Assembly: GCA_035706205.1 (NCBI GenBank)
Contig: DASSVK010000054.1
Coordinates: forward strand, 15,839-79,838
Source of the DNA: Nitrososphaeraceae archaeon
Lineage (GTDB): Archaea; Thermoproteota; Nitrososphaeria; Nitrososphaerales; Nitrososphaeraceae
Direction of reading: 5' to 3'
Length of the DNA stretch: 64,000 nt
Shown: positions 39,328 through 52,236 of the stretch, one piece after another
How the letters are laid out: every line of letters begins with the position of its first letter
Position numbering within the stretch: the first letter of the stretch is position 1
Translations under genes and position numbers: made by a program
The notes under the pieces: model-generated
What the model saw: only the letters and a program-made list of their open reading frames with translations
Databases searched by the model: none
What the model was told of the DNA's origin: nothing

Positions 39328-39840
39328 CTAATCTATTATAGCAACAACTTCGTTTCTTGAGACAGTTGAACCCTCTTTTACTTTGACTTCCTTTACTACA
39401 CCATCTTTATGAGACTTAACAGCAATTTGCATTTTCATAGATTCAAGAACTAAAATAGGATCACCTTCCTTTATTGTATCATCTTTTTTAACAGAGACTT
39501 TAACGACTCTACCCGGTATTTGGCTGGTTATATTATTAGCTCGACTTACAGTTCCCTTAGCACTTAAAGATTTTTCTATAATTTCGGTTATTTTGGATTG
39601 TTTCTTTATTTCAATTATGACTCCGTCAATAAAAATTTTATATTTTGTTTCAGTAGAAGAAAGAATTTTTACATGATGAAATGTATTACCCAGCATAAAT
39701 TCAAATTCATCTGATTTTGATTTTAAAATTTTTAAATTATATTTTTTTCCATCTATTTCAAATAAAAGATCACCTTCTCCTTTATTGTATATCAATTCGG
39801 CATTAATTAATTCAGGTCGACCCTCTATTTGAAATTTCAT
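39328..39840 (-). CDS. accB: Biotin carboxyl carrier subunit of acetyl-/propionyl-CoA carboxylase
   Basis: LESMKM biotinylation motif in a C-terminal lipoyl-type domain. Confidence 0.92.
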   Translation of the reverse strand: MKFQIEGRPELINAELIYNKGEGDLLFEIDGKKYNLKILKSKSDEFEFMLGNTFHHVKILSSTETKYKIFIDGVIIEIKKQSKITEIIEKSLSAKGTVSRANNITSQIPGRVVKVSVKKDDTIKEGDPILVLESMKMQIAVKSHKDGVVKEVKVKEGSTVSRNEVVAIID

Positions 39841-41342
39841 TAATAAAATCCTCCACTCATTGACTTTTGTATTTTATTCAATCGTTGAGGACTTAAATTT
39901 GATTTTTTTACATATTCAGATTGTAATAAAATTGCCGATATTGCTGCATATGCTTTGTCTTTGTATTCCTGACTTCTTTTTTGTTTCATCTTTTCTATAA
40001 TATTATATTTCTCAATATAATCAGTAGAAATATTGCCATTTATAAAATTAGATTCTTCTATAATTGTTTTATGAATTGGAATAGTAGTATTTATTCCTTC
40101 AATAGTAAATTCAAATAAAGCATTCTTCATTCTTACTCGTGCTTCGTTAAAGTCACCACCATAGGTAATTAATTTAGCAATTAATGAATCGTAATAACCA
40201 GACACATTACAACCTGGATAGAGAAAAGTATCCACTCTGACTCCAGGTCCAGAAGGAATATTGCAATTTGGAATAAATCCTACAGATGGAGTAAAATCAT
40301 AAAAGGGATCCTCAGAATTTATACGACATTCTATGGCACAGCCTTTTAATTCAAGATCTTTTTGTTTAAATGGTATTTCTTCACCTTGAGCAACTTGAAT
40401 TTGTAACTTGACAAGATCCTTTCCAGTAACAAGTTCAGTAACTGGATGTTCAACTTGTAATCTAGCATTAATTTCAATAAAATAAAAATTGCCTTTAGAA
40501 TCAGATAAAAATTCTGCTGTTCCAGCGTTTAAATAGTCTAGAGCAGTACTTGCACGTACTGCAATTTCTCCTACTTTTTCTCTAATTTCTTTATTAACTA
40601 CCGGTGAAGGTGACATTTCAATAAGTTTTTGGTGTCTTCTTTGAATAGAACATTCCCTTTCGAAAAGATGTCTACCATTTCCACTAGAATCTCTTAGCAA
40701 TTGATATTCAATATGCCTGATGTTGGTAAGATATTTTTCTATAAATAATGCAGACTTGCCAAATGCTGCTTTTGATTCATTTGATGCTAGTTCAAATTCT
40801 TGTCTAAGTTCTTTTTCGTTACTTACCAATCTAATGCCTCTTCCTCCTCCTCCATAAGCAGATTTAAGCATCACAGGATAACCTGCGTCCTTAGCGATAT
40901 CTACAGCCAATTCTATATCTTCAACTACTCCATCACTTCCAGGTACAGTAGGAACTTCAGCTTTTTTCATTATTTCTTTACATTTCATTTTATCTCCAGC
41001 TAACTCCATCGCTTTTGCGGTTGGACCTATAAAAATAATGTTATTTTTCTTACACTCCTCAGAAAATAATTCATTTTCAGAGAGAAATCCATAACCAGGA
41101 TGTATAGCATCGGCACCAGATAATTTAGCTATATCAATTATTTTGTCTATACAAAGGTAACTTTCTGACGCTTGTGCTGCGCCCAATCTATATGATTCAT
41201 CAGCTCTTTTAACATGTATTGATCGATTATCTTCATCTGAATAAACTGAGATTGATTTTATTCCCAAATCTTTGCATGCTCTAATAACACGTAGAGCAAT
41301 CTCTCCACGGTTTGCTATAAGAATGCTTGAAATTTTGGACAT
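39840..41342 (-). CDS. accC: Biotin carboxylase subunit
   Basis: ANRGEIA, HPGYGFLSEN, GGGGRGIR, RHIEYQ, CSIQRRHQKLIE, EINARLQVEHPVTE, YDSLIAKL. Confidence 0.96.
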   Translation of the reverse strand: MSKISSILIANRGEIALRVIRACKDLGIKSISVYSDEDNRSIHVKRADESYRLGAAQASESYLCIDKIIDIAKLSGADAIHPGYGFLSENELFSEECKKNNIIFIGPTAKAMELAGDKMKCKEIMKKAEVPTVPGSDGVVEDIELAVDIAKDAGYPVMLKSAYGGGGRGIRLVSNEKELRQEFELASNESKAAFGKSALFIEKYLTNIRHIEYQLLRDSSGNGRHLFERECSIQRRHQKLIEMSPSPVVNKEIREKVGEIAVRASTALDYLNAGTAEFLSDSKGNFYFIEINARLQVEHPVTELVTGKDLVKLQIQVAQGEEIPFKQKDLELKGCAIECRINSEDPFYDFTPSVGFIPNCNIPSGPGVRVDTFLYPGCNVSGYYDSLIAKLITYGGDFNEARVRMKNALFEFTIEGINTTIPIHKTIIEESNFINGNISTDYIEKYNIIEKMKQKRSQEYKDKAYAAISAILLQSEYVKKSNLSPQRLNKIQKSMSGGFY

Positions 41343-41352
41343 CTAACTTCAC

Positions 41353-42894
41353 CTATAAATTGATATTCCCATGTTTTTTCCATGGACCCGTTTCTTTCTT
41401 TCCTAATAATGATGCAATAGCTCCTATTATCATAGTTCGAGTTTCCATAGGATCAATTACTAGATCAATAATTCCTTTCTCTGCCGCAATATAGGGATTA
41501 GCAAATTTTTTCCTATATTCATCAGCTAATCTCTTTTTTGTTGTTTTTGCATCTTGAGAAGATTTAAGATCTCTTCTATGAATTATTGTAATTGCTGCTT
41601 CAGGTCCTAAAACTGCAATTTCTGCAGTAGGCCATGCAAAATTAATATCTGCTCTTAAGTTTTTACTCCCCATTGCAATATAAGCTCCGCCATACGCCTT
41701 TCCAATGATACAAGTAATCTTAGGCACTGTTGCTTCACAATATGCATATAATAATTTACTACCATGTCTAATTATTCCATTATGCTCTTGATCAGCACCT
41801 GGTAAATAACCAGGTGTATCAACTAACGTAATAATAGGTATATTAAAAGAATCACAAAATCTAATGAATCTTGCTGCTTTATTAGAAGAATCTATATCTA
41901 AAGCACCTGCTAAATACATTGGTTGATTAGCTACAATGCCAACTGTTTTACCATCCATTCTAGCAAAGCCTACAATGATATTGCTTGCAAAGGATTCATG
42001 AATTTCAAAAAAATCTTTATCGTCGATTATACTCATAATGATTGATTTAATATCGTATGGTTGATATGGATTCTCAGGCAACATATTAATCAATGAAGGA
42101 TCAAGTCTATTTGGGTCATCGTTTGATTCTATTGATGGTGGTTCTTCTAAATTGTTTTGAGGTAGAAATGAAAGTAATTTTTTAATTTTTTCCATACATT
42201 CATATTCATTAGCTGCAACCATATGAGCAACTCCTGACTTAGTTGCATGAGTAGAAGCTCCTCCGAGTTCTTCGAATGATACATCTTCACTTAAGACTTC
42301 CTTCACAACTTCAGGTCCAGTTACAAACATCTGTCCTATATTCTCTACCATTATTACAAAATCTGTCATTGCCGGAGAATATACAGCACCACCAGCACAA
42401 GGTCCTATGCTAGCAGTTATTTGAGGAATTATTCCAGAAGCAGTAGTATTTCTATAGAAAATATCACCATAGCCGTCTAAACTCATTACTCCTTCCTGAA
42501 TTCTGGCTCCACCAGAATCAAGAACTCCTATGATTGGTGCGCCTACTTTAATGGCTCTATCCATAATTTTTACAATTTTTCTTGATGCCATTTCACCCAA
42601 TGAGCCACCTAAAACTGTAAAATCATATGCGTACACAAAGATTTTTCTGCCGTTAATTGTTCCAAATCCCGTAATCATGGCATCCCCGTAGAATTTCGTA
42701 GTTTCAGGATCATCCTGTCTATGAGTCACATATTTATCCAATTCAATAAAACTTCCTTCATCAAGAAGAAGAGCAATTCGTTCTCTAGCCGTAAGTTTGC
42801 CTTTGGAATGTTGTATATCAATTTTATCTTTACCACCGCCAGATTCAGCTAAATTTTTTAATTCATACAATTTCTTTAACTTTTCTTCGTGCAT
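41353..42894 (-). CDS. Carboxyltransferase subunit of acetyl-/propionyl-CoA carboxylase (3HP/4HB cycle)
   Basis: KLTARERI, DFTVLGGSLG, DSGGARIQEG, GPCAGGAVY, DTPGYLPG, KAYGGAYIAM, KKHGNI. Confidence 0.95.
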   Translation of the reverse strand: MHEEKLKKLYELKNLAESGGGKDKIDIQHSKGKLTARERIALLLDEGSFIELDKYVTHRQDDPETTKFYGDAMITGFGTINGRKIFVYAYDFTVLGGSLGEMASRKIVKIMDRAIKVGAPIIGVLDSGGARIQEGVMSLDGYGDIFYRNTTASGIIPQITASIGPCAGGAVYSPAMTDFVIMVENIGQMFVTGPEVVKEVLSEDVSFEELGGASTHATKSGVAHMVAANEYECMEKIKKLLSFLPQNNLEEPPSIESNDDPNRLDPSLINMLPENPYQPYDIKSIIMSIIDDKDFFEIHESFASNIIVGFARMDGKTVGIVANQPMYLAGALDIDSSNKAARFIRFCDSFNIPIITLVDTPGYLPGADQEHNGIIRHGSKLLYAYCEATVPKITCIIGKAYGGAYIAMGSKNLRADINFAWPTAEIAVLGPEAAITIIHRRDLKSSQDAKTTKKRLADEYRKKFANPYIAAEKGIIDLVIDPMETRTMIIGAIASLLGKKETGPWKKHGNINL

Positions 42895-43262: not shown

Positions 43263-43637
43263 TTAGGATTTTAATTTTGCTATTTTTTTTATTTTTTCAT
43301 ATATTATATCTTGATATTTTAAGTAAGATTTAGGATTTTCTAAACAAGATTTACACAAGAATATAGTATCTTTTTGAAATTCTCGATTTAAAAGATCATA
43401 GTCATCAGGAAACCCATCTTGAACAGCATTACCACATAAGAAACAATGTAGATTTGGTACAATAGTTTTCTCAGAAGTTTCCTTCTTCACCTTATTATTG
43501 TTATTACAATCTAAATGTTTAATTGTTTTTGATGATTTTGACCATAGAGCGTATTCACCTGCTGAAATTTGCTTTTCACAGATCTGACATTTACCTTTAA
43601 ATTTGACTAAAAGTTTTATCCATTCAGACCCCATCAT
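43263..43637 (-). CDS. Hypothetical protein with two putative Zn-binding modules
   Basis: CQIC...KHLDC and CFLCG...CKSC; ATGA overlap with the rfcL stop. Confidence 0.7.
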   Translation of the reverse strand: MMGSEWIKLLVKFKGKCQICEKQISAGEYALWSKSSKTIKHLDCNNNNKVKKETSEKTIVPNLHCFLCGNAVQDGFPDDYDLLNREFQKDTIFLCKSCLENPKSYLKYQDIIYEKIKKIAKLKS

Positions 43638-44866
43638 AGTTTTTTATTCCTATTCATTTCTTTTTGAAGGATTTCTACAAATTTTTCATCAAGCATAAAA
43701 TTTGAAATAAATTCATGAATATCTATTTTAAATTCCTGGATTATCTCAAGCATGTACGGATAAAACAACATTCCAAAAGTACTAGAAGAAACATGAAAGA
43801 ATGTAGAAAGATTAGAAATCAAATTACGTAAAGATAAACCTCTTGAAAAGATTTTACCCATTAAAGGCCAGCTAATACCATATTGATTATAAGATATCAT
43901 CTTATTCTGCATATTTTCATATAAAAGTTCAATTAATATATTATCCATATATTTTAATAAATTCCAATTTCTCTTTTTATATATTCGTGCTACTTGTAAA
44001 TCAATTCTCGATAGACTGTCTAATAATTGGGATAAAGTATTCATATCCAGATTCGATGATACAATACTTGTAAATAGTGAATTTACAATATCTTTTCTGC
44101 GTTCTTCAGACGATAAGCCAAACCGTGGATCAGAATATTTGCCATCTAAAGATAATAAAATGATTCTGGCATTATCTTTATTTTGACTAGAAAACAATTC
44201 ATTTAGACCTTCAGCGATATCAACCTTAAATTTTTGGGTTATAAATTGACCATAACCACTGCACTTAGATTGAGCAATATTAAGCATTGTTCTAATATCG
44301 CCATTACTTTTTTCAACTATCCACTTTTTATCATCAAAAGGTAGAGAATATTTTTGTTCATCTAGTACATAATTTAAAAACATCAGCATTAAATTGGATG
44401 AAATGCGTTGGAATTTAATTATTTTACAAAGTTTTGTTAAATTTTTTAATTTAATGTTACTAGAATTCGCAGCAAATAATATTGGAAAGTTTGACGATTT
44501 GACAATATTTATAAGAACTTCAATTCCTCCACTATCTTCTCTTCCATAAATACCATCTACTTCATCAAAAAAAAGAAGAATTTTTTTTCCAAAGATACTT
44601 GTATTATTAAGGAGTGGATTTACTAATTTTTCTAATTGTGAACCACTTCTAGTATCACTTGCATTTAATTCTATTAGATCATAGTTCAAAATAGAAGATA
44701 ATAATTTAATGATTGTAGTTTTCCCAATTCCAGGCGGTCCTATTAAAAATAATGGTTTAGTACCAGGGAGCCATTTTACTAACCATTTCAATATAGTAAT
44801 TCTTATTTCTTCATTACCAATCATCTGTTCAAAACTTTTTGGTCGATAAATTTCTGTCCAATACAT
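43634..44866 (-). CDS. rfcL: Replication factor C large subunit
   Basis: WTEIYRPKS, GPPGIGKTT, IELNASD.R, FDEVDG, GDIR. Confidence 0.92.
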   Translation of the reverse strand: MYWTEIYRPKSFEQMIGNEEIRITILKWLVKWLPGTKPLFLIGPPGIGKTTIIKLLSSILNYDLIELNASDTRSGSQLEKLVNPLLNNTSIFGKKILLFFDEVDGIYGREDSGGIEVLINIVKSSNFPILFAANSSNIKLKNLTKLCKIIKFQRISSNLMLMFLNYVLDEQKYSLPFDDKKWIVEKSNGDIRTMLNIAQSKCSGYGQFITQKFKVDIAEGLNELFSSQNKDNARIILLSLDGKYSDPRFGLSSEERRKDIVNSLFTSIVSSNLDMNTLSQLLDSLSRIDLQVARIYKKRNWNLLKYMDNILIELLYENMQNKMISYNQYGISWPLMGKIFSRGLSLRNLISNLSTFFHVSSSTFGMLFYPYMLEIIQEFKIDIHEFISNFMLDEKFVEILQKEMNRNKKL

Positions 44867-44883
44867 ATTATATCGAATCTTGA

Positions 44884-46023
44884 TTAATGTAATTTGCGTG
44901 TTAGAGGATGAATAGTTCTTTCAAAATACTTAAAGAGATCACGTTTAGTTATATCATGATACCAATATTGATTATAATGATTAACTGTAAGAAATAAAAA
45001 TGTTAGAAACGGCTTAAGTTCGAATTCTTCTGGTAAAAATTCCAAAGCGAGTTTCGCTTCATCTAAATATATTTCACTTTTCTTCAGAGTAAGTTCGAAT
45101 CCTTTTCTAACATCATTGGCAATGAGGGAATAATACAGGGGCCAAGATGGTATTTTAATTGTACCTTCGTTAATTGAATCTTGCATTTCGTTACCACATC
45201 CAACAGATTCACTAGCTTTTGCCATTCCTAAATGGTAAATTTCATTTAAAGGTGTTTGATTTAAGGCCATATTTCTTCCAGCAGTACCCATAATTGAACG
45301 ATATTTTTTATAACACCCAATCATATGTTCATCAGTAATTGATTCAGGTTTCATCTTTAATTTTTGATCAATTAATTGACCTATTCTAGCATCTTTAAAT
45401 CCTTCTTCAAATGCTTTTAGAACTGAATCGCCTCCTTGAGAAATTTTTTCCCTAGCTATATCCAAAATATAAGGATTCATTAATCTATAGTCATCTAGAT
45501 ATTCTATATCTTCATCTTTATCCATAATTCGATCCATAGGTTCACTCAAATCAATAGCTATGATATGTCCATCTATTATAGAAGTTCTTAAGTCATTTGA
45601 AAGATCTTCTTTATAATAAGTCATAGAGCCATCAAATAAAGCATTAAATACTGGAAAGGTCATTTTAACAAAATTAGAGTTCAATATTCTTTGTACTCTA
45701 TCGGCCAGAATTTCTGGCCTAGAAAGACGAGTTTTAATATCTTCAATTTTAGCATCAGATTCAAGTTCCATATCTTGAGAACCAACTTCTTCTGCAAATT
45801 GAGATACAGTTGAATTTGGTGAAGTATCAGAAATTATCCTTCTATGTAAGGATAGAAGGAAACGTTTAGTAAAATCTTCAAATTCCGTTTCATATTTCAT
45901 TTTATATTTATTATATTGTTTATAGCCTCTTTCTCTCAATAATACTTGTTTAAGTATATCTTTACCAGCCTTTGTACTCATTAAAGCACTTTTAGAAAAA
46001 ACAAAATCGTCTTTGCTACTCAT
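44884..46023 (-). CDS. Uncharacterised 379-aa protein, probable divergent isoprenoid-synthase (class I terpenoid synthase) fold
   Basis: CDS itself is secure. Fold call inferred from DRIMDKDED, GQLID, GCGNEMQDSINEG motifs in polyprenyl-synthase order (see findings). Confidence 0.6.
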   Translation of the reverse strand: MSSKDDFVFSKSALMSTKAGKDILKQVLLRERGYKQYNKYKMKYETEFEDFTKRFLLSLHRRIISDTSPNSTVSQFAEEVGSQDMELESDAKIEDIKTRLSRPEILADRVQRILNSNFVKMTFPVFNALFDGSMTYYKEDLSNDLRTSIIDGHIIAIDLSEPMDRIMDKDEDIEYLDDYRLMNPYILDIAREKISQGGDSVLKAFEEGFKDARIGQLIDQKLKMKPESITDEHMIGCYKKYRSIMGTAGRNMALNQTPLNEIYHLGMAKASESVGCGNEMQDSINEGTIKIPSWPLYYSLIANDVRKGFELTLKKSEIYLDEAKLALEFLPEEFELKPFLTFLFLTVNHYNQYWYHDITKRDLFKYFERTIHPLTRKLH

Positions 46024-46376
46024 TTATAATTAGTTGAATTGTAATTGCCATTATTTATTATCTTTTATAATTTGACGCCTATCCCAAAAATAGATAATAA
46101 TATCGATCCTTATTTTTATCATCTTTATTACATTATAATTAAAAATAAGGTTGAGAGAGAACAAATTCATGGCATAATACAGGATTCAGGAAATTGTTTA
46201 CAATATGTGAAAAGAAGGTAAAAACTATCTTGGTCTTGCAACTAACAAATAATATAATTGATTATAGATGGATAATTTCGGAAAGGTTTTTAATTAATTT
46301 TTAATTAGAAATATTTCAATCAACTAAATCTATACAATTGTAAGTAAAATGGTAACAAAATAGTAAAATGAGTTAT

Positions 46377-48143: not shown

Positions 48144-48452
48144 TTATTGTGTCTCCAATAAGCTATTTACATCTTCTTCAGATACAGCTTTAAGCGCTAC
48201 TGTAGAAATTCTATAAGGTTTATTGAAAAGTCGCCCTAGTTTTATCGAATTATCACCATAATAATATATAGGAACTTTGTATTCCTTCGAGGACTTTTCA
48301 AGTAATTGTTTATCTACATTATTTAGTGAAGTAGAAACGATAATTAATTTTGATCCTTTGACATTAGATTTAACCTCTTTTATTCCATCCTTATACTTAT
48401 TGGAGGATTTTGCCTCTTTAATTATTTTCTCCAGATTCTTCATTTTGTTCAT
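48144..48452 (-). CDS. rpl30e: 50S ribosomal protein eL30 (L7Ae family)
   Basis: GIKEVK, KLIIVS, LGRLFNKPYRIS; position after rpoA. Confidence 0.85.
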   Translation of the reverse strand: MNKMKNLEKIIKEAKSSNKYKDGIKEVKSNVKGSKLIIVSTSLNNVDKQLLEKSSKEYKVPIYYYGDNSIKLGRLFNKPYRISTVALKAVSEEDVNSLLETQ

Positions 48453-51400
48453 TCACCTTCATATACAAATCAACCATTCCTGTTCCAACAGGTACAGTTG
48501 CTCCCACAATAACATTTTCTGTAACTCCTTTTAATGCTTCCGTTTGTCCTTCCATTGACGCTTTTGCAATAGTTGGAACAGTAATTTCAAATGCAGCTCT
48601 TGCCAACACAGAGGTTTTAGTTCCAGCAATACCATGTCTTCCAATTTGTTGAAGATATCCCTTAGATGTCATCAAATCAGCTACCAACATAATATGTCGA
48701 ATGTCAACTTCCAAACCTTGTTCTTCTAGCGTATTAGTAATCTCGCGAACTAGAGCAGTTCTTGCTGCTTCTATTCCTAAGGTTTGCCATATTTCATAAA
48801 CATTATTTGTTGTTATACGAGAAAGATCTATGCCGTCTACATAAATTATTTTAGATAAATTAGAACCTGCAGTTTGTATTACCCATTCTTCATTCTGTTT
48901 AACTATTGTAACTCTTTCTATATCAGGTACACCTTTTACTCTAGTATTGAGAAGCTTATTTTTCAACAGTAATAGAGTTTGAGCATCTAATTCTTCATTC
49001 AACTTTATAACAATACTCAATTCCTTTTCATCAAGAGTTGTATCATATTTCTTTTTACTACCCTTTAGAATTTCAAAAATATCCGTCAAAATACATCCTC
49101 GATCGTTTAGCTTATTTTGAGAAAAGGTTAATTTTATTATTCCACTATAATCAATATCTGTCTTTTCAACTACATCAATAACCTTAGTATGTATTATCTC
49201 TTTTGCAACATTTAATGCTTTTTCTCTAGAAATTCGATGTTCCTCATCAAGGTAAATATCCATTGTAGGGGTTATGGGTTTTTTTCTAGCATCTACTAAT
49301 TCTATTAAACGAGGTAGTCCAAGCGTTACATTTCGTTCTTTAACTCCAGCATAATGAAAAGTTCTCAAGGTCATTTGTGTTCCAGGCTCACCGATAGATT
49401 GAGCAGTAACCACTCCTACTGCTTCTCCAGGCTCAACCATAGCTCTTTCTATCAAATCTATAATTTTTTTAAGAACCTTTTCTATTCCTTGTTTACTGAG
49501 TCTGTTTTCTAGTAATACATTTTCAATATTATTTTTTAATTTAGGATTAAAGTCAGAGACATATTGATTCAATATATGTTTAATTTCTTCTTCATCTGCT
49601 TTTGCTGCTTCATCAACTACTGATTCACTCTCAATTATTCTGGAAATATTAACCGCTTCACCATGGTCACTTTTTGCCGGATCAATGCCATCCTCTCCAT
49701 AGAGATATTGAATTATATTACCATGAGGATCTCTGACTGTACCATCATATTCCATTTTCAAATGTTCAAGGGCATTGATTAATCTTCTTTGCATATATCC
49801 AGATTGTTGAGTTCTTACAGCAGTATCAACTAAACCTTCTCTACCGCCCATAGCATGGAAAAAAAACTCGAGAGGAGTAAGCCCATCTCGATAATTTGAT
49901 TTAACAAAACCTTTTGCATCGGGATTTGTATCATTTATCTTGAAATGAGGTAAAGATCTATTATGATATCCTTTATGGATCCTTTTTCCTCTTATGGATT
50001 GTTGACCTAAAACAGCAGTCATTTGGCCGATATTTAGTGTAGAACCTCGAGCGCCCGTTGATGCCATTATAACTCCTGCATTATTATTTGGAAATGATCT
50101 ATCAGCTAATCTGCCAGCTCGATCTCTAGCTCTGGAAAGTTCATTTACAAGGTATAATTCTAATGCTTCTTCAGGTGATAATCCTCTAGTTAAGGGTAAA
50201 CTTCCCTCTTTATACTGTTGAATCAGTTCATCGATCTTATCATATGCTTTCTTAATTACTCCTGTAATTTCATTATGTGTCTCCTCTGACAACCATAAAT
50301 CTGAATAGCCATATGTGAAACCCCTATGAGTAATGAAAGTTTTTAACATTACCAAAATAGAATTAAGGAATTTTTGTGCTACATCATTTCCATAATCCTT
50401 CGCTATTCTATGTAGAACACTATCTGGCTCCTCTGCACCAATTGAGGCTTTATCTATTACACCACTAATCAATTCTCCATTTTTAATTACAACATCCTTT
50501 CCTTCTCCCTTAACAGCTTTATTCCATTTTGATGTAATAATGAAATTGAAATCCTTTGGAAGAAATAGTGAAAATAATTGCTTTCCTGTATATACTTTAT
50601 TACCATCTTTTTCAGCTTTTGGCTCTAGTATTGGCCCAGTATAACCTCCCAATAATGCTAAATTGAAAAATTCTTCTTTAGATAAGAAAGTTTCATCTCT
50701 CGTTAAAATATAAGCCCCTGTAATAAAGTCTCGAATGCCACCAATTATAGGTCCGCCGTATCTTGGAGAAATTAGCTGATCTTGGACACTCATCAATAAA
50801 GATGCTTCAGACCTTGCTTCTTCGCTTTGGGGAACATGAAGGTTCATCTCATCACCATCAAAATCAGCATTATAAGGAGGACAAACTGCTGGATGTAACC
50901 TAAAGGTTCTATACGGAAGAATCCTTACATAATGTGCCATTATAGACATTCTGTGTAATGATGGTTGTCTATTAAAAATGACTATATCACCATCTGATAA
51001 ATGTCGTTCAATAATATAACCAGGAATGATAGAATCGGCTACTATTTGTCTATCATTTACATAATCAAGCCTTATTTTTACTCCATCAGGTCTTATAATA
51101 TAATTTGCTCCTGGATAGTTATTGGGTCCATTAAAAACTAATTTTTTTAATTTATCTATATTCCAATTTGATACAGTTTCAGGGATGGTTAGTTTTTTTG
51201 CAACTTCATATGGAATACCTACTTCAGAAATAGCAATGTTTGGATCAGGTGAAATAACAGTTCTACTTGAAAAATCTACTCTTTTTCCAGACAAGGAACC
51301 CCTAAATCTACCTTCTTTACCTTTTAACCTTTGTGTTAATGTTTTTAATGGTCTTCCTGACCTATGATGAGCTTGTGGAATTCCTGAAACTTCATTATCA

Positions 51401-52236
51401 AAATATGTTGTGACGTGATATTGAAGTAAATCTACTAAATCTTGAACAATCAATGGAGGCGTACCTGCTTCTTTGCTTTCCTTTAATCTTTGATTTACAC
51501 GAATTATATCTACTAGTTTATGGGTTAAGTCATCTTCAGATCTTATTCCTGTTTCAAGTATAATAGATGGTCTAACGGTAACTGGTGGGACAGGAAGAAC
51601 TTGTAAGATAAACCACTCAGGACGAGCAGTAGTAGGATCATAACCTAATAGTTTTAGATCGTCATCAGTTATATTGACCATTCTTTCTCTAATGGTTATT
51701 GGCAATAGTCGATTTTCTCCTGCATCAGTCTTTTCAACAAAGATAGTAGGTTTAGTAAAAATTAAGTCATATTGTTCCTTTTGACAATGAGGACAAATTT
51801 TTATTTTTTTGGATTTTTCAATTATTTCATCTTTGATATTTTCTAGAGTAATAACAGCATAAGATGCCTTGGCATTTCTAATTTCTCTATAATATTCCAA
51901 TTCTTCATTTTCTAATTTTATTCTATTACATGATCTACAAGTTGTAAGTAGTAATTTATGTATATCATCTACAAATGCTATGTGTAAAACAGGTTCTGCT
52001 AATTCGATGTGACCAAAATGGCCTGGGCATTTCGCAGAGGTATTTCCACATGAAATACATTTTTGCCCTGGTTCAAGTGTTCCTAAACGGTTATCCATCA
52101 ATCCACCCTGAACTGGCATTCCGTCTTCATCATAGGTTTCAGGTGCTGTTGTTTCAGCAACGCTAAATTTTCTAACTTCTATTGGAGACCATATGCTAAA
52201 TTTTATTGCACCTAAATTTTTAATTGATTCTTCCAT
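48418..52236 (-). CDS. rpoA: RNA polymerase largest subunit, unsplit A'+A'' (Rpo1)
   Basis: CPGHFGHIEL, KEGRFR..LSGKRVD, YNADFDGDEMN catalytic motif, GLVDTA..T..SGY, QSIGEPGTQMTLRTFH, and the A'' C-terminus in one ORF. Confidence 0.98.
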   Translation of the reverse strand: MEESIKNLGAIKFSIWSPIEVRKFSVAETTAPETYDEDGMPVQGGLMDNRLGTLEPGQKCISCGNTSAKCPGHFGHIELAEPVLHIAFVDDIHKLLLTTCRSCNRIKLENEELEYYREIRNAKASYAVITLENIKDEIIEKSKKIKICPHCQKEQYDLIFTKPTIFVEKTDAGENRLLPITIRERMVNITDDDLKLLGYDPTTARPEWFILQVLPVPPVTVRPSIILETGIRSEDDLTHKLVDIIRVNQRLKESKEAGTPPLIVQDLVDLLQYHVTTYFDNEVSGIPQAHHRSGRPLKTLTQRLKGKEGRFRGSLSGKRVDFSSRTVISPDPNIAISEVGIPYEVAKKLTIPETVSNWNIDKLKKLVFNGPNNYPGANYIIRPDGVKIRLDYVNDRQIVADSIIPGYIIERHLSDGDIVIFNRQPSLHRMSIMAHYVRILPYRTFRLHPAVCPPYNADFDGDEMNLHVPQSEEARSEASLLMSVQDQLISPRYGGPIIGGIRDFITGAYILTRDETFLSKEEFFNLALLGGYTGPILEPKAEKDGNKVYTGKQLFSLFLPKDFNFIITSKWNKAVKGEGKDVVIKNGELISGVIDKASIGAEEPDSVLHRIAKDYGNDVAQKFLNSILVMLKTFITHRGFTYGYSDLWLSEETHNEITGVIKKAYDKIDELIQQYKEGSLPLTRGLSPEEALELYLVNELSRARDRAGRLADRSFPNNNAGVIMASTGARGSTLNIGQMTAVLGQQSIRGKRIHKGYHNRSLPHFKINDTNPDAKGFVKSNYRDGLTPLEFFFHAMGGREGLVDTAVRTQQSGYMQRRLINALEHLKMEYDGTVRDPHGNIIQYLYGEDGIDPAKSDHGEAVNISRIIESESVVDEAAKADEEEIKHILNQYVSDFNPKLKNNIENVLLENRLSKQGIEKVLKKIIDLIERAMVEPGEAVGVVTAQSIGEPGTQMTLRTFHYAGVKERNVTLGLPRLIELVDARKKPITPTMDIYLDEEHRISREKALNVAKEIIHTKVIDVVEKTDIDYSGIIKLTFSQNKLNDRGCILTDIFEILKGSKKKYDTTLDEKELSIVIKLNEELDAQTLLLLKNKLLNTRVKGVPDIERVTIVKQNEEWVIQTAGSNLSKIIYVDGIDLSRITTNNVYEIWQTLGIEAARTALVREITNTLEEQGLEVDIRHIMLVADLMTSKGYLQQIGRHGIAGTKTSVLARAAFEITVPTIAKASMEGQTEALKGVTENVIVGATVPVGTGMVDLYMKVNEQNEESGENN

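What the first reader, a model, noticed from the sequence alone, without database searches (positions are those of the whole stretch)
44884..46023. 'Hypothetical' 379-aa protein carries the motif skeleton of a trans-isoprenyl diphosphate/terpene synthase
Seen, in the order found in polyprenyl synthases: an acidic helix end D164-RIM-D168-K-D170-E-D172 (FARM-like DDxxD), G215-QLI-D219 (the conserved GQxxD), YKKY at the KT position, G275-CG-N278-EMQ-D282-SIN-E286-G (SARM position, also matching the NSE/DTE pattern N-x-x-x-D-x-x-x-E), and a closing helix YLDEAKLALEFLP. The RRG loop after the first motif is missing. Known: this fold performs Mg-dependent prenyl elongation, head-to-head coupling or cyclisation, and thaumarchaeal lipid and quinone biosynthesis still has unassigned steps. 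Inference: an unrecognised, divergent prenyl-diphosphate-processing enzyme embedded among core genes (between rps7 and rfcL).
Basis: partly seen in the sequence, partly recalled or inferred. Interest (0 to 1): 0.75.

Follow-up and report, generated by a model that had tools for sequence, protein, structure and literature searches.

The report
Hidden prenyl-synthase-fold enzyme of ammonia-oxidising archaea
A "hypothetical" gene found in every ammonia-oxidising archaeon checked is predicted to have the fold and metal-binding acidic residues of isoprenoid chain-building enzymes but lacks their building-block site. Its distant relatives sit beside the genes that make archaeal ether lipids, so it probably performs an undescribed step of membrane-lipid synthesis.

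Summary
**Observation confirmed.** The 379-aa ORF (44884-46023, minus strand) carries every listed motif at the stated residues.

**Fold**
- AlphaFold2 gives a confident all-helical model (pLDDT 91.8, pTM 0.89).
- All 50 best PDB matches are trans-polyprenyl diphosphate synthases.
- No Pfam, NCBIfam or PDB sequence model recognises the protein. Public records call it "hypothetical".

**Conservation down to 28-32% identity**
- Invariant: D164, D168, D170, E171, Q216, D219, K240, D282.
- The second FARM Asp is Arg, and RRG is absent.
- The motif-I basic residues are not conserved, and the loop after SARM is deleted.
- E286 varies, so the NSE/DTE reading fails.
- I read this as a retained allylic-diphosphate/Mg site and a lost IPP site.

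**Distribution**
- One copy in all 87 genomes of three AOA families sampled from the class.
- In a 41-genome order panel it occurs in exactly the 12 genomes that have amoA.
- It was found in 0 of 341 other Thermoproteota.

**Context**
- In AOA it lies just upstream of rfcL.
- In the non-AOA homologues whose neighbours could be read, the neighbours are G1P dehydrogenase, GGGP-synthase-family genes and a canonical GGPP-type synthase.

**Reading**
- It is a non-elongating prenyl-diphosphate enzyme of ether-lipid core assembly.
- The favoured specific role is speculative: the DGGGP-synthase step. The two mesophilic AOA examined lack a UbiA-type enzyme for it, while three non-AOA relatives have one.
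- No biochemistry exists.

The parts
44884..46023 (-). 379-aa ORF (P0001), 44 kDa, pI 5.65, soluble. Predicted isoprenoid-synthase (trans-IPPS-like) fold.
45679..46023 (-). Residues 1-115: N-terminal helices. The first Asp motif lies about 80 residues further into the protein than in the genome's own GGPPS, so there is an N-terminal extension. T17, G20, F51, D66, P69 and F76 are conserved in the family; role unknown.
45508..45534 (-). First acidic motif D164-R-I-M-D168-K-D170-E171-D172, at the C-terminal end of predicted helix 143-168. It aligns to FARM 'DDIMDxDD' of archaeal GGPPS with the second Asp replaced by invariant Arg. No RRG follows.
45367..45381 (-). G215-Q216-L-I-D219, in predicted helix 199-224. 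It aligns to the GQxxD motif of polyprenyl synthases. Q216 and D219 are invariant.
45301..45312 (-). Y238-K239-K240-Y241. Invariant K240 aligns to the Lys of the 'KT' motif.
45163..45201 (-). G275-C-G-N278-E279-M-Q-D282-S-I-N-E286-G, near the C-terminal end of predicted helix 259-286. Invariant D282 aligns to the first Asp of SARM. Positions 278/279 are N/D and E/D ('IDDFQD' in Aenigmarchaeota homologues). E286 is not conserved. The 18 residues that follow SARM in canonical enzymes, including the 'TGKxxGxD' loop, are absent.
45031..45069 (-). Y319-LDEAKLALEFLP-331 helix. It aligns to the C-terminal 'A..e.A...L..lp' helix of GGPPS. Y319 is invariant.
46024..46376 (-). 353-bp AT-rich intergenic region after rps7, with TATA-like A/T boxes 25-50 nt before the ATG. 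It probably holds the gene's own promoter (read from sequence only).
43634..44866 (-). RFC large subunit gene (410 aa). It starts 17 nt after the target's stop. The adjacency is conserved in Nitrososphaeraceae and Nitrosopumilaceae; the functional link is unexplained.
43263..43637 (-). 124-aa Cys-rich zinc-ribbon-like protein whose start overlaps the rfcL stop. It is conserved as the third gene of the trio.

Best explanation
The gene encodes a soluble enzyme of the class I isoprenoid-synthase (trans-prenyl diphosphate synthase) fold. It keeps the Mg2+/allylic-diphosphate site: first-motif D164 and D168, D282 at the SARM position, and Q216, D219 and K240. It has lost the isopentenyl-diphosphate site: there is no RRG, the motif-I basic residues are not conserved, and the post-SARM Lys loop is deleted.

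It therefore most likely binds and ionises a prenyl diphosphate (probably GGPP) and passes the prenyl group to an acceptor other than IPP, rather than elongating chains. Gene neighbourhoods of its distant relatives place it in the core assembly of archaeal ether lipids, beside G1P dehydrogenase, GGGP synthase and GGPP synthase.

The most specific reading I favour is that it forms the second ether bond (GGPP + GGGP -> DGGGP + PPi). I give this about 0.25 on its own. On this reading it replaces the UbiA-type DGGGP synthase, which the two mesophilic ammonia oxidisers examined lack.

Shown here: fold, residue conservation, phyletic pattern and gene contexts. Inferred: metal and diphosphate binding, loss of the IPP site, the substrate and the reaction.
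For: **Fold.** The AF2 model has pLDDT 91.8 and pTM 0.89. All top 50 Foldseek PDB hits are trans-prenyl diphosphate synthases, with TM-scores up to 0.57 normalised to the query and 0.69 normalised to the target.

**Concordant sequence-profile register.**
- hhalign of the family against 30 archaeal GGPPS gives E 7e-4. It aligns GQxxD, K240 to the Lys of KT, and D282 to the first Asp of SARM.
- The N-terminal half aligns SxxxD164-R-I-M-D168-x-D-E onto S-L-x-H-D-D-I-M-D-x-D-D.
- A PDB profile search ranks geranyltranstransferase 3ipi second, in the same register.

**Invariant residues.** D164, D168, D170, E171, Q216, D219, K240 and D282 are invariant down to 28-32% identity.

**IPP site.** No invariant Lys or Arg lies upstream of the first motif under either alignment register. 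RRG is absent.

**Context.**
- Aenigmarchaeota homologues P0132, P0229 and P0136 lie divergently next to G1P dehydrogenase (E 6e-50 and 2e-43) plus one or two PcrB/GGGPS genes.
- Homologues P0125 and P0270 are followed after 18 bp by a divergent PcrB-family gene (hhalign probability 95.7%). In L146 a canonical short-chain prenyl synthase comes next.

**Complementary pattern for the DGGGPS reading.**
- Three non-AOA relatives that lack the target each have a DGGGPS-like UbiA (222-257 bits).
- AOA genomes G000 and G004 have none, only heme-O-synthase-like, MenA-like and EboC-like members.
- The Aenigmarchaeota MAG has no UbiA hit at all.
- A review states that DGGGP synthase could not be identified in Thaumarchaeota (PMC4244643).

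**Selection.** The gene is single-copy in all 87 sampled genomes of three AOA families. It is 61-63% identical between Nitrososphaeraceae and Nitrosopumilaceae, against 37-40% for the adjacent rfcL.
Against: - No biochemical data exist.
- Sequence-level similarity to prenyl synthases is below significance for HMMER and only marginal for hhalign (probability 26%).
- In AOA the gene is linked not to lipid genes but to rfcL and a zinc-ribbon gene. This is unexplained.
- Against the DGGGPS reading in particular:
  - AOA carry two heme-O-synthase-like UbiA paralogues, one of which could be the real DGGGP synthase.
  - Nitrosocaldus has the target and still keeps weaker DGGGPS-like UbiA proteins (125 and 81 bits).
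  - The Aenigmarchaeota MAG is only 0.6 Mb, with 5 tRNAs detected, so absences there are weak evidence.
  - The UbiA comparison covers only 7 genomes.
  - DGGGP is a membrane lipid, and this protein has no membrane segment.
Confidence: 0.55

Rival explanations
1. It is a non-catalytic or regulatory prenyl-synthase-like partner. It would bind GGPPS and/or GGGPS, or bind GGPP itself, and channel or tune flux into ether lipids. Known parallels are the inactive small subunits of heteromeric prenyl synthases and plant GGPPS-recruiting proteins.
For: It has the fold of a prenyl synthase but degenerate FARM and SARM and no IPP site. It is always next to a PcrB/GGGPS-family gene in non-AOA lineages. 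AOA already have two canonical polyprenyl synthases and a GGGPS.
Against: Known inactive subunits have lost their Asp-rich motifs (recalled from the literature, not tested here). Here six acidic residues plus Q216 and K240 are invariant over very long distances, which is the pattern expected of a working metal/diphosphate site. The protein is much more conserved than its neighbour rfcL.
Confidence: 0.18
2. It is still a chain-elongating prenyl diphosphate synthase, with an unconventional IPP site, that makes GGPP or another chain length.
For: The best structural matches are elongating synthases. The Aenigmarchaeota MAG that carries a homologue next to G1PDH and GGGPS has no PF00348 gene, by the Pfam model and by my own HMM.
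Against: No conserved basic residues correspond to GGKRxR or RRG. The second FARM Asp is an invariant Arg. AOA have two canonical synthases, and contig L146 has a canonical one two genes downstream. The MAG is probably incomplete.
Confidence: 0.07
3. Its role is unrelated to isoprenoids. The fold has been reused, for example for binding a nucleotide or another diphosphate, in a function tied to DNA replication, as its tight operon with the clamp-loader large subunit in AOA suggests.
For: The order target -> rfcL -> zinc-ribbon gene is conserved, with gaps of 0-30 nt or overlapping stop and start codons, across Nitrososphaeraceae and Nitrosopumilaceae and in L250.
Against: The rfcL link is confined to AOA. 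It is absent in the Aenigmarchaeota MAG, where the rfcL-like gene lies on another contig, and beside the second Nitrosocaldaceae copy. In the non-AOA homologues whose neighbours could be identified, those neighbours are lipid genes instead. Archaeal housekeeping genes are often co-transcribed without a shared function.
Confidence: 0.1
4. It performs a lipid reaction specific to ammonia oxidisers, such as a step towards crenarchaeol (cyclohexane ring) or another thaumarchaeal isoprenoid, acting as a terpene-synthase-like enzyme.
For: It co-occurs perfectly with amoA in the order panel (12 of 12 against 0 of 29) and is absent from 341 other Thermoproteota. That crenarchaeol's cyclohexane ring is found only in Thaumarchaeota is stated in PMC4244643; that the enzyme forming it is unassigned is my own knowledge, which my paper search did not contradict.
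Against: Homologues occur in Aenigmarchaeota and in an unplaced lineage, next to early lipid genes. A diphosphate-ionising site is hard to reconcile with ring formation far from C1 on a finished biphytanyl chain. The NSE/DTE motif of cyclases is not conserved.
Confidence: 0.08

Closest known systems
trans-Isoprenyl (polyprenyl) diphosphate synthases, Pfam PF00348 (e.g. E. coli octaprenyl-PP synthase 3wjk, M. mazei 3ipi, M. luteus HexPPS large subunit 3aqb)
   Same: The predicted fold is the same: all top 50 Foldseek hits belong to this family. The acidic motifs lie at the C-terminal ends of the helices that correspond to helices D and H. GQxxD, the Lys of the KT motif and the C-terminal 'A..A..L..LP' helix are in the same order and register.
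   Different: The protein is not recognised by the Pfam or NCBIfam models. FARM reads D-R-x-x-D rather than DDxxD, and there is no RRG. The motif-I basic residues are not conserved. The 18-residue stretch after SARM that includes the Lys loop is deleted, and the second SARM Asp is Ser. The first Asp motif lies about 80 residues further into the protein than in the genome's own GGPPS.
Catalytically inactive prenyl-synthase paralogues (GPPS small subunits, PDSS2/DLP1, plant GGPPS-recruiting protein)
   Same: They are paralogues with the prenyl-synthase fold that no longer elongate on their own. This comparison is recalled from the literature, not tested here.
   Different: Those proteins have lost the Asp-rich motifs. 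This family keeps six invariant acidic residues, Q216 and K240.
Terpene synthases derived from prenyl synthases (e.g. insect enzymes)
   Same: They keep the allylic-diphosphate/Mg site and lose the IPP-binding residues (comparison from memory).
   Different: They come from an unrelated lineage. No cyclase-type NSE/DTE motif is conserved here, and the gene context points to ether-lipid assembly rather than volatile terpenes.
UbiA-type DGGGP synthase (NCBIfam NF009521/NF009522/NF009523)
   Same: This is the reaction proposed for the target. Both use an Asp-rich, Mg2+-dependent prenyl-diphosphate site. The phyletic patterns are complementary in the 7 genomes examined.
   Different: UbiA enzymes are integral membrane proteins with many membrane segments. 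The target is soluble, has none, and belongs to a different family.
Squalene/phytoene synthases (PF00494)
   Same: They have the class I isoprenoid fold and use DxxxD-type motifs rather than DDxxD.
   Different: None appears among the top 50 structural matches. No PF00494 gene or hit is found in this genome. No second prenyl-diphosphate site is evident.

Membership tests
Polyprenyl synthase family (Pfam PF00348) | Match to the family HMM above its gathering score | tested here: not met
   There is no PF00348 hit even at E<=10. A family profile search of 1.84 billion proteins returned only 107 hits, at most 383 aa long and most of them fragments; the seven read in full are all homologues of the target, and nothing suggested a prenyl-synthase match. 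The genome's two true members score 241 and 176 bits.
Polyprenyl synthase family (Pfam PF00348) | All-helical trans-IPPS fold | tested here: met
   The AF2 model has pLDDT 91.8. All top 50 Foldseek PDB hits are this family, with TM-scores normalised to the target of 0.47-0.69.
Polyprenyl synthase family (Pfam PF00348) | First Asp-rich motif DDxx(xx)D followed by RRG | tested here: not met
   The sequence is D164-R-I-M-D168-K-D-E-D. The second Asp is an invariant Arg and no RRG follows. D1 and D5 of the motif are retained.
Polyprenyl synthase family (Pfam PF00348) | Second Asp-rich motif DDxxD | tested here: inconclusive
   D282 aligns to the first Asp and position 283 is Ser. Aenigmarchaeota homologues have 'DDFQD', one helical turn earlier.
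Polyprenyl synthase family (Pfam PF00348) | IPP-binding basic residues (motif I GGKRxR, the Arg of RRG) | tested here: not met
   No invariant Lys or Arg occupies either candidate position. K120 and R146 vary in distant members.
Polyprenyl synthase family (Pfam PF00348) | GQxxD motif and the Lys of the KT motif | tested here: met
   G215, Q216, D219 and K240 are aligned to these motifs and are conserved (Q216, D219 and K240 invariant, G215 nearly so).
Polyprenyl synthase family (Pfam PF00348) | Condensation of IPP with an allylic diphosphate | not testable with these tools
   This needs an enzyme assay.
Class I terpene cyclases | NSE/DTE triad (N/D)Dxx(S/T)xxxE | tested here: not met
   The pattern N278...D282...E286 is present in the window's protein, but E286 is T, K, Q, R, S or D in relatives.
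UbiA-type DGGGP synthase | Integral membrane UbiA fold with NDxxDxxxD | tested here: not met
   There is no hydrophobic segment (highest 19-residue hydropathy 0.96) and no UbiA hit.
DGGGP synthase activity (EC 2.5.1.42), irrespective of family | Transfer of geranylgeranyl from GGPP to GGGP | not testable with these tools
   Only indirect evidence exists: gene context and complementary distribution with UbiA-type enzymes.

The most novel reading that the evidence does not exclude
The protein is the missing DGGGP synthase of ammonia-oxidising archaea. It would be a soluble enzyme of the prenyl-synthase fold that forms the second ether bond of archaeal lipids (GGPP + GGGP). On this reading it displaced the universal membrane-bound UbiA-type enzyme when the ammonia-oxidising lineage arose. 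It is shared, probably by gene transfer, with some Aenigmarchaeota.
Probability: 0.25. Interest if true: 0.85.

Novelty: new variant of a known kind. Interest (0 to 1): 0.72.

Why it matters
- Ammonia-oxidising archaea are among the most abundant microbes in oceans and soils, and their tetraether lipids underlie the TEX86 palaeothermometer.
- Their core lipid pathway still has unassigned steps. DGGGP synthase and CDP-archaeol synthase "could not be identified" in them (PMC4244643). This study finds CarS absent from all 41 genomes of the order and no DGGGPS-like UbiA in the two mesophilic AOA examined.
- A universally conserved, strongly constrained, unannotated enzyme-like protein is therefore a concrete candidate for one of these steps. 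It has a prenyl-diphosphate site, and its relatives sit in ether-lipid gene clusters.
- The candidate is directly testable.
- If confirmed, it would show non-orthologous replacement in a pathway thought to be fixed across Archaea. It would also extend what the prenyl-synthase fold is known to do.

Tried and rejected
1. **GGGP synthase replacement.** I recalled that Thaumarchaeota lack PcrB-type GGGPS. The recollection was wrong: 40 of 41 genomes of the order, including this one, have it.
2. **CDP-archaeol synthase replacement.** CarS is absent from all 41 genomes of the order. The 29 non-AOA genomes lack both CarS and the target, so the target cannot be what fills that gap.
3. **AAA+/RFC pairing as a moving module.** The second, divergent copy in a Nitrosocaldaceae MAG is followed by an unrelated 434-aa protein.
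4. **Global hhalign.** The -glob run gave a meaningless alignment. Only local alignments were used.
5. **ATPase_2 and ribonucleotide reductase hits.** The weak Pfam hit (E 0.0011, 19 bits against a cut-off of 33) and the NCBIfam hit were treated as noise.
6. **Lipid genes downstream in the Aenigmarchaeota MAG.** I fetched the whole 0.6-Mb MAG. No CDP-alcohol phosphatidyltransferase motif was found. Membrane-protein candidates were listed but not pursued, and the MAG looks incomplete.
8. **Literature.** Searches found no paper describing this family.
Full report
**The object.** The window holds an ATG-initiated ORF on the minus strand at 44884-46023 that encodes 379 aa.
- Singly they are not remarkable. 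D...D occurs 2.3 times per shuffle of this sequence, GQ..D occurs in about 4% of shuffles, and there is no true DDxxD.
- The protein is soluble. The highest 19-residue hydropathy is 0.96, the pI is 5.65 and the mass is 44 kDa.
- Upstream lie rpoB, rpoA, L30e, nusA, rps12 and rps7, then a 353-bp AT-rich gap.
- Downstream, 17 nt after the stop, begins a 410-aa RFC large subunit gene (NF003229, E 1.8e-60). A 124-aa Cys-rich protein follows, then the acetyl/propionyl-CoA carboxylase genes.

**No sequence model recognises it.**
- Pfam, NCBIfam and PDB sequence searches give only noise.
- More than 2,200 close homologues exist. Every one of the 120 listed that carries a name is called "hypothetical protein", and none has a Pfam domain. 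Named orthologues in Ca. Nitrosotenuis cloacae, Ca. Nitrosocosmicus franklandus and Ca. Nitrosocaldus cavascurensis are also "hypothetical".
- A profile search of 1.84 billion representative proteins returned only 107 hits, about seven full-length 50% clusters and many fragments. The seven clusters read in full are homologues of the target, and nothing suggested a match to a prenyl synthase.

**Fold.**
- With a 16-sequence alignment reaching 28% identity (A2), AlphaFold2 gives an all-helical model with mean pLDDT 91.8 and pTM 0.89.
- Foldseek against the PDB returns 522 matches. The top 50 are, without exception, trans-prenyl diphosphate synthases (octaprenyl, C45, solanesyl, hexaprenyl, FPP and GGPP synthases).
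- Probability is 1.00 and E-values run from 7e-4 to 1e-2. TM-scores are 0.42-0.57 normalised to the query and up to 0.69 normalised to the target.

**Residue register.** I built an alignment of 30 archaeal GGPP-type synthases from genomes of the phylum and compared it with a 51-sequence family alignment.
- hhalign gives a marginal local match (E 7e-4, probability 26%) in a meaningful register:
  - G215-Q216-x-x-D219 falls on GQxxD.
  - K240 falls on the Lys of 'KT'.
  - D282 falls on the first Asp of SARM.
  - The C-terminal helix falls on the 'A..A..L..LP' helix.
  - 18 residues that follow SARM in the canonical enzymes, including the 'TGKxxGxD' loop, are missing.
- The N-terminal half aligns weakly (E 0.045-0.07). 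The best register puts S160-E-P-M-D164-R-I-M-D168-K-D170-E171 on S-L-V-H-D-D-I-M-D-N-D-D. So D164 and D168 correspond to the first and fifth FARM positions, and the second Asp is Arg.
- A PDB profile search ranks the M. mazei geranyltranstransferase 3ipi second, not significantly (E 0.27) but in the same register.
- In the model these motifs sit near the C-terminal ends of helices 143-168 and 259-286, in helix 199-224 and at the start of helix 239-251. These positions match helices D, H, F and G of the family.
- I could not read model coordinates. That the acidic residues face one cavity is therefore inferred by homology, not measured.

**Conservation.**
- Across A2 the invariant residues are D164, D168, D170, E171, Q216, D219, K240, G246, G266, D282, W294, Y297, Y319 and F344.
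- N278 and E279 alternate with D. Aenigmarchaeota homologues read 'IDDFQD'.
- E286 is not conserved, so the NSE/DTE reading fails.
- No Lys or Arg upstream of the first motif is invariant. K120 and R146, the two candidates for the motif-I position, vary in distant members.
- Together with the missing RRG, this says the allylic-diphosphate/Mg site is kept and the IPP site is gone.

**Distribution.**
- In a class-wide sample the gene is present as a single copy in 87 of 87 genomes of three AOA families of the window's order, and in 0 of 64 from other orders.
- In a phylum-wide sample it is present in 60 of 60 genomes of those families and in 0 of 341 outside the order.
- The order also contains many families without it. 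In a 41-genome panel, 12 genomes have the gene. These are exactly the 12 that have archaeal amoA.
- The gene thus arose or arrived with the ammonia-oxidising lineage. Because that lineage is probably one clade, this counts as one event, not twelve.
- It is under strong constraint. It is 61-63% identical between Nitrososphaeraceae and Nitrosopumilaceae, against 37-40% for rfcL next door.

**Context in AOA.** The order target -> rfcL -> zinc-ribbon gene is conserved in nearly all Nitrososphaeraceae and Nitrosopumilaceae loci examined, sometimes with overlapping stop and start codons. I have no explanation for this link. rfcL is a genuine clamp-loader subunit.

**Context outside AOA.** A maximum-likelihood tree separates the AOA clade from a long-branched group made of P0125, P0131 and the Aenigmarchaeota sequences.
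- P0132 and P0229 (Ca. Aenigmarchaeota) and P0136 lie divergently beside a G1P dehydrogenase (NF002022, E 6e-50 and 2e-43) and one or two PcrB/GGGPS genes. P0136 sits on a 389-kb contig that also carries GatD/GatE-type and Fer4_RLI (ABCE1-type) genes, which I read as archaeal.
- P0125 and P0270 come from two separate metagenomes. Each is followed after 18 bp by a 255- or 256-aa protein. The two are 50.6% identical to each other, and hhalign places them in the PcrB family (probability 95.7%, E 1e-8), with the YLEGGSG and GGGI motifs.
- In L146 the next gene is a canonical short-chain prenyl synthase carrying GGKRLRP, DDFED...RRG and FQTIDDILN.
- So in the two non-AOA clades whose gene neighbours could be identified, the neighbours are the enzymes that make G1P and GGPP and form the first ether bond.
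- A further divergent copy (P0137) lies beside transposases in a Nitrosocaldaceae MAG.

**What reaction?** Three candidates were tested against the genomes.
- *GGGPS replacement* is rejected. AOA have PcrB.
- *CarS replacement* is unlikely. CarS is missing from all 41 genomes of the order, including the 29 that also lack the target.
- *DGGGP synthase replacement* fits best.
  - Each of three non-AOA relatives (G497, G500, G503) has a UbiA protein that scores 222-257 bits on NF009523 and E 1e-43 to 1e-52 on the DGGGPS models.
  - The window's genome and Ca. Nitrosotenuis cloacae have only heme-O-synthase-like (two each) and MenA-like UbiA proteins; the window's genome also has an EboC-like one.
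  - The Aenigmarchaeota MAG has no UbiA hit and no polyprenyl synthase.
  - A review notes that DGGGP synthase and CarS could not be identified in Thaumarchaeota (PMC4244643).
  - An operon encoding a GGPPS-like, a GGGPS-like and the target-like protein would then encode three consecutive steps.
- *Caveats to the DGGGPS reading.*
  - One of the two AOA heme-O-synthase-like paralogues could be the real DGGGPS, although a non-AOA genome with a DGGGPS-like UbiA (G500) also has two top-scoring UbiA hits besides it, which I did not classify.
  - Nitrosocaldus keeps weaker DGGGPS-like UbiA proteins alongside the target.
  - The MAG is 0.6 Mb with only five tRNAs detected.
  - Only seven genomes were compared.

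**Verdict.**
- The protein defines an unannotated family of the class I isoprenoid-synthase fold. In the genome samples scanned here it occurs only in ammonia oxidisers; distant relatives turned up in Aenigmarchaeota and in contigs of unplaced origin.
- Its exact reaction is unknown. I favour prenyl transfer in ether-lipid core assembly, with DGGGP synthesis as the leading specific hypothesis at about 0.25.
- Earlier notes of this scan on relatives in other genomes reached similar fold-level readings. I used them as leads only.

Noticed in passing
window 43263-44866 (-): rfcL (410 aa) evolves much faster than the target: 37-40% identity between AOA families against 61-63% for the target. It is translationally coupled to a 124-aa Cys-rich zinc-ribbon protein that has no family assignment. 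The trio is conserved across AOA.
   Followed up: partly
41-genome panel of the window's order: CDP-archaeol synthase (CarS, PF01864) is undetectable in all 41 genomes, AOA and non-AOA alike, although it is found in the archaeal control genomes. The enzyme for this step in the whole order remains unidentified.
   Followed up: partly
G000 C5:19603-20310, C85:16368-17123, C11:22511-23149 (own genome, outside the window): The genome has two heme-O-synthase-like UbiA paralogues, both above NCBIfam's equivalog cut-off, and an EboC-like UbiA protein. It has no DGGGPS-like UbiA. One of these could be a lipid prenyltransferase.
   Followed up: partly
L144 8001-9152 (Nitrosocaldaceae MAG BPGC01000003): A second, highly divergent copy of the family (P0137, branch length 4) lies beside Mutator-type transposase genes and a DUF5906/primase-like gene. 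This suggests carriage on a mobile element.
   Followed up: no
L146 1225-1992 and L249 2513-3283: These encode a 255/256-aa protein family with no Pfam hit that is a very divergent PcrB/GGGPS-like TIM-barrel protein (hhalign probability 95.7%). It is always immediately downstream of the target homologue in that clade.
   Followed up: partly
proteins P0044-P0063 with source 'src': Several homologues listed without contigs look like mosaics of different Nitrososphaeraceae sequences. In alignment A1 their N-terminal half matches one lineage and their C-terminal half another. They may be chimeric assemblies and should not be used for evolutionary inference.
   Followed up: no
window 39328-42894 (-): The biotin carboxyl carrier, biotin carboxylase and carboxyltransferase genes of the acetyl/propionyl-CoA carboxylase lie directly downstream of the trio. 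I take this to be the carboxylase of the 3-hydroxypropionate/4-hydroxybutyrate cycle (not tested). In many Nitrososphaeraceae, pccB follows rfcL and the zinc-ribbon gene.
   Followed up: no
window 48418-52236 (-): RNA polymerase subunit A is encoded as one 1272-aa ORF rather than split A'/A'' genes, as I recall is usual for Thaumarchaeota. In the Aenigmarchaeota MAG the query matches two separate ORFs.
   Followed up: no
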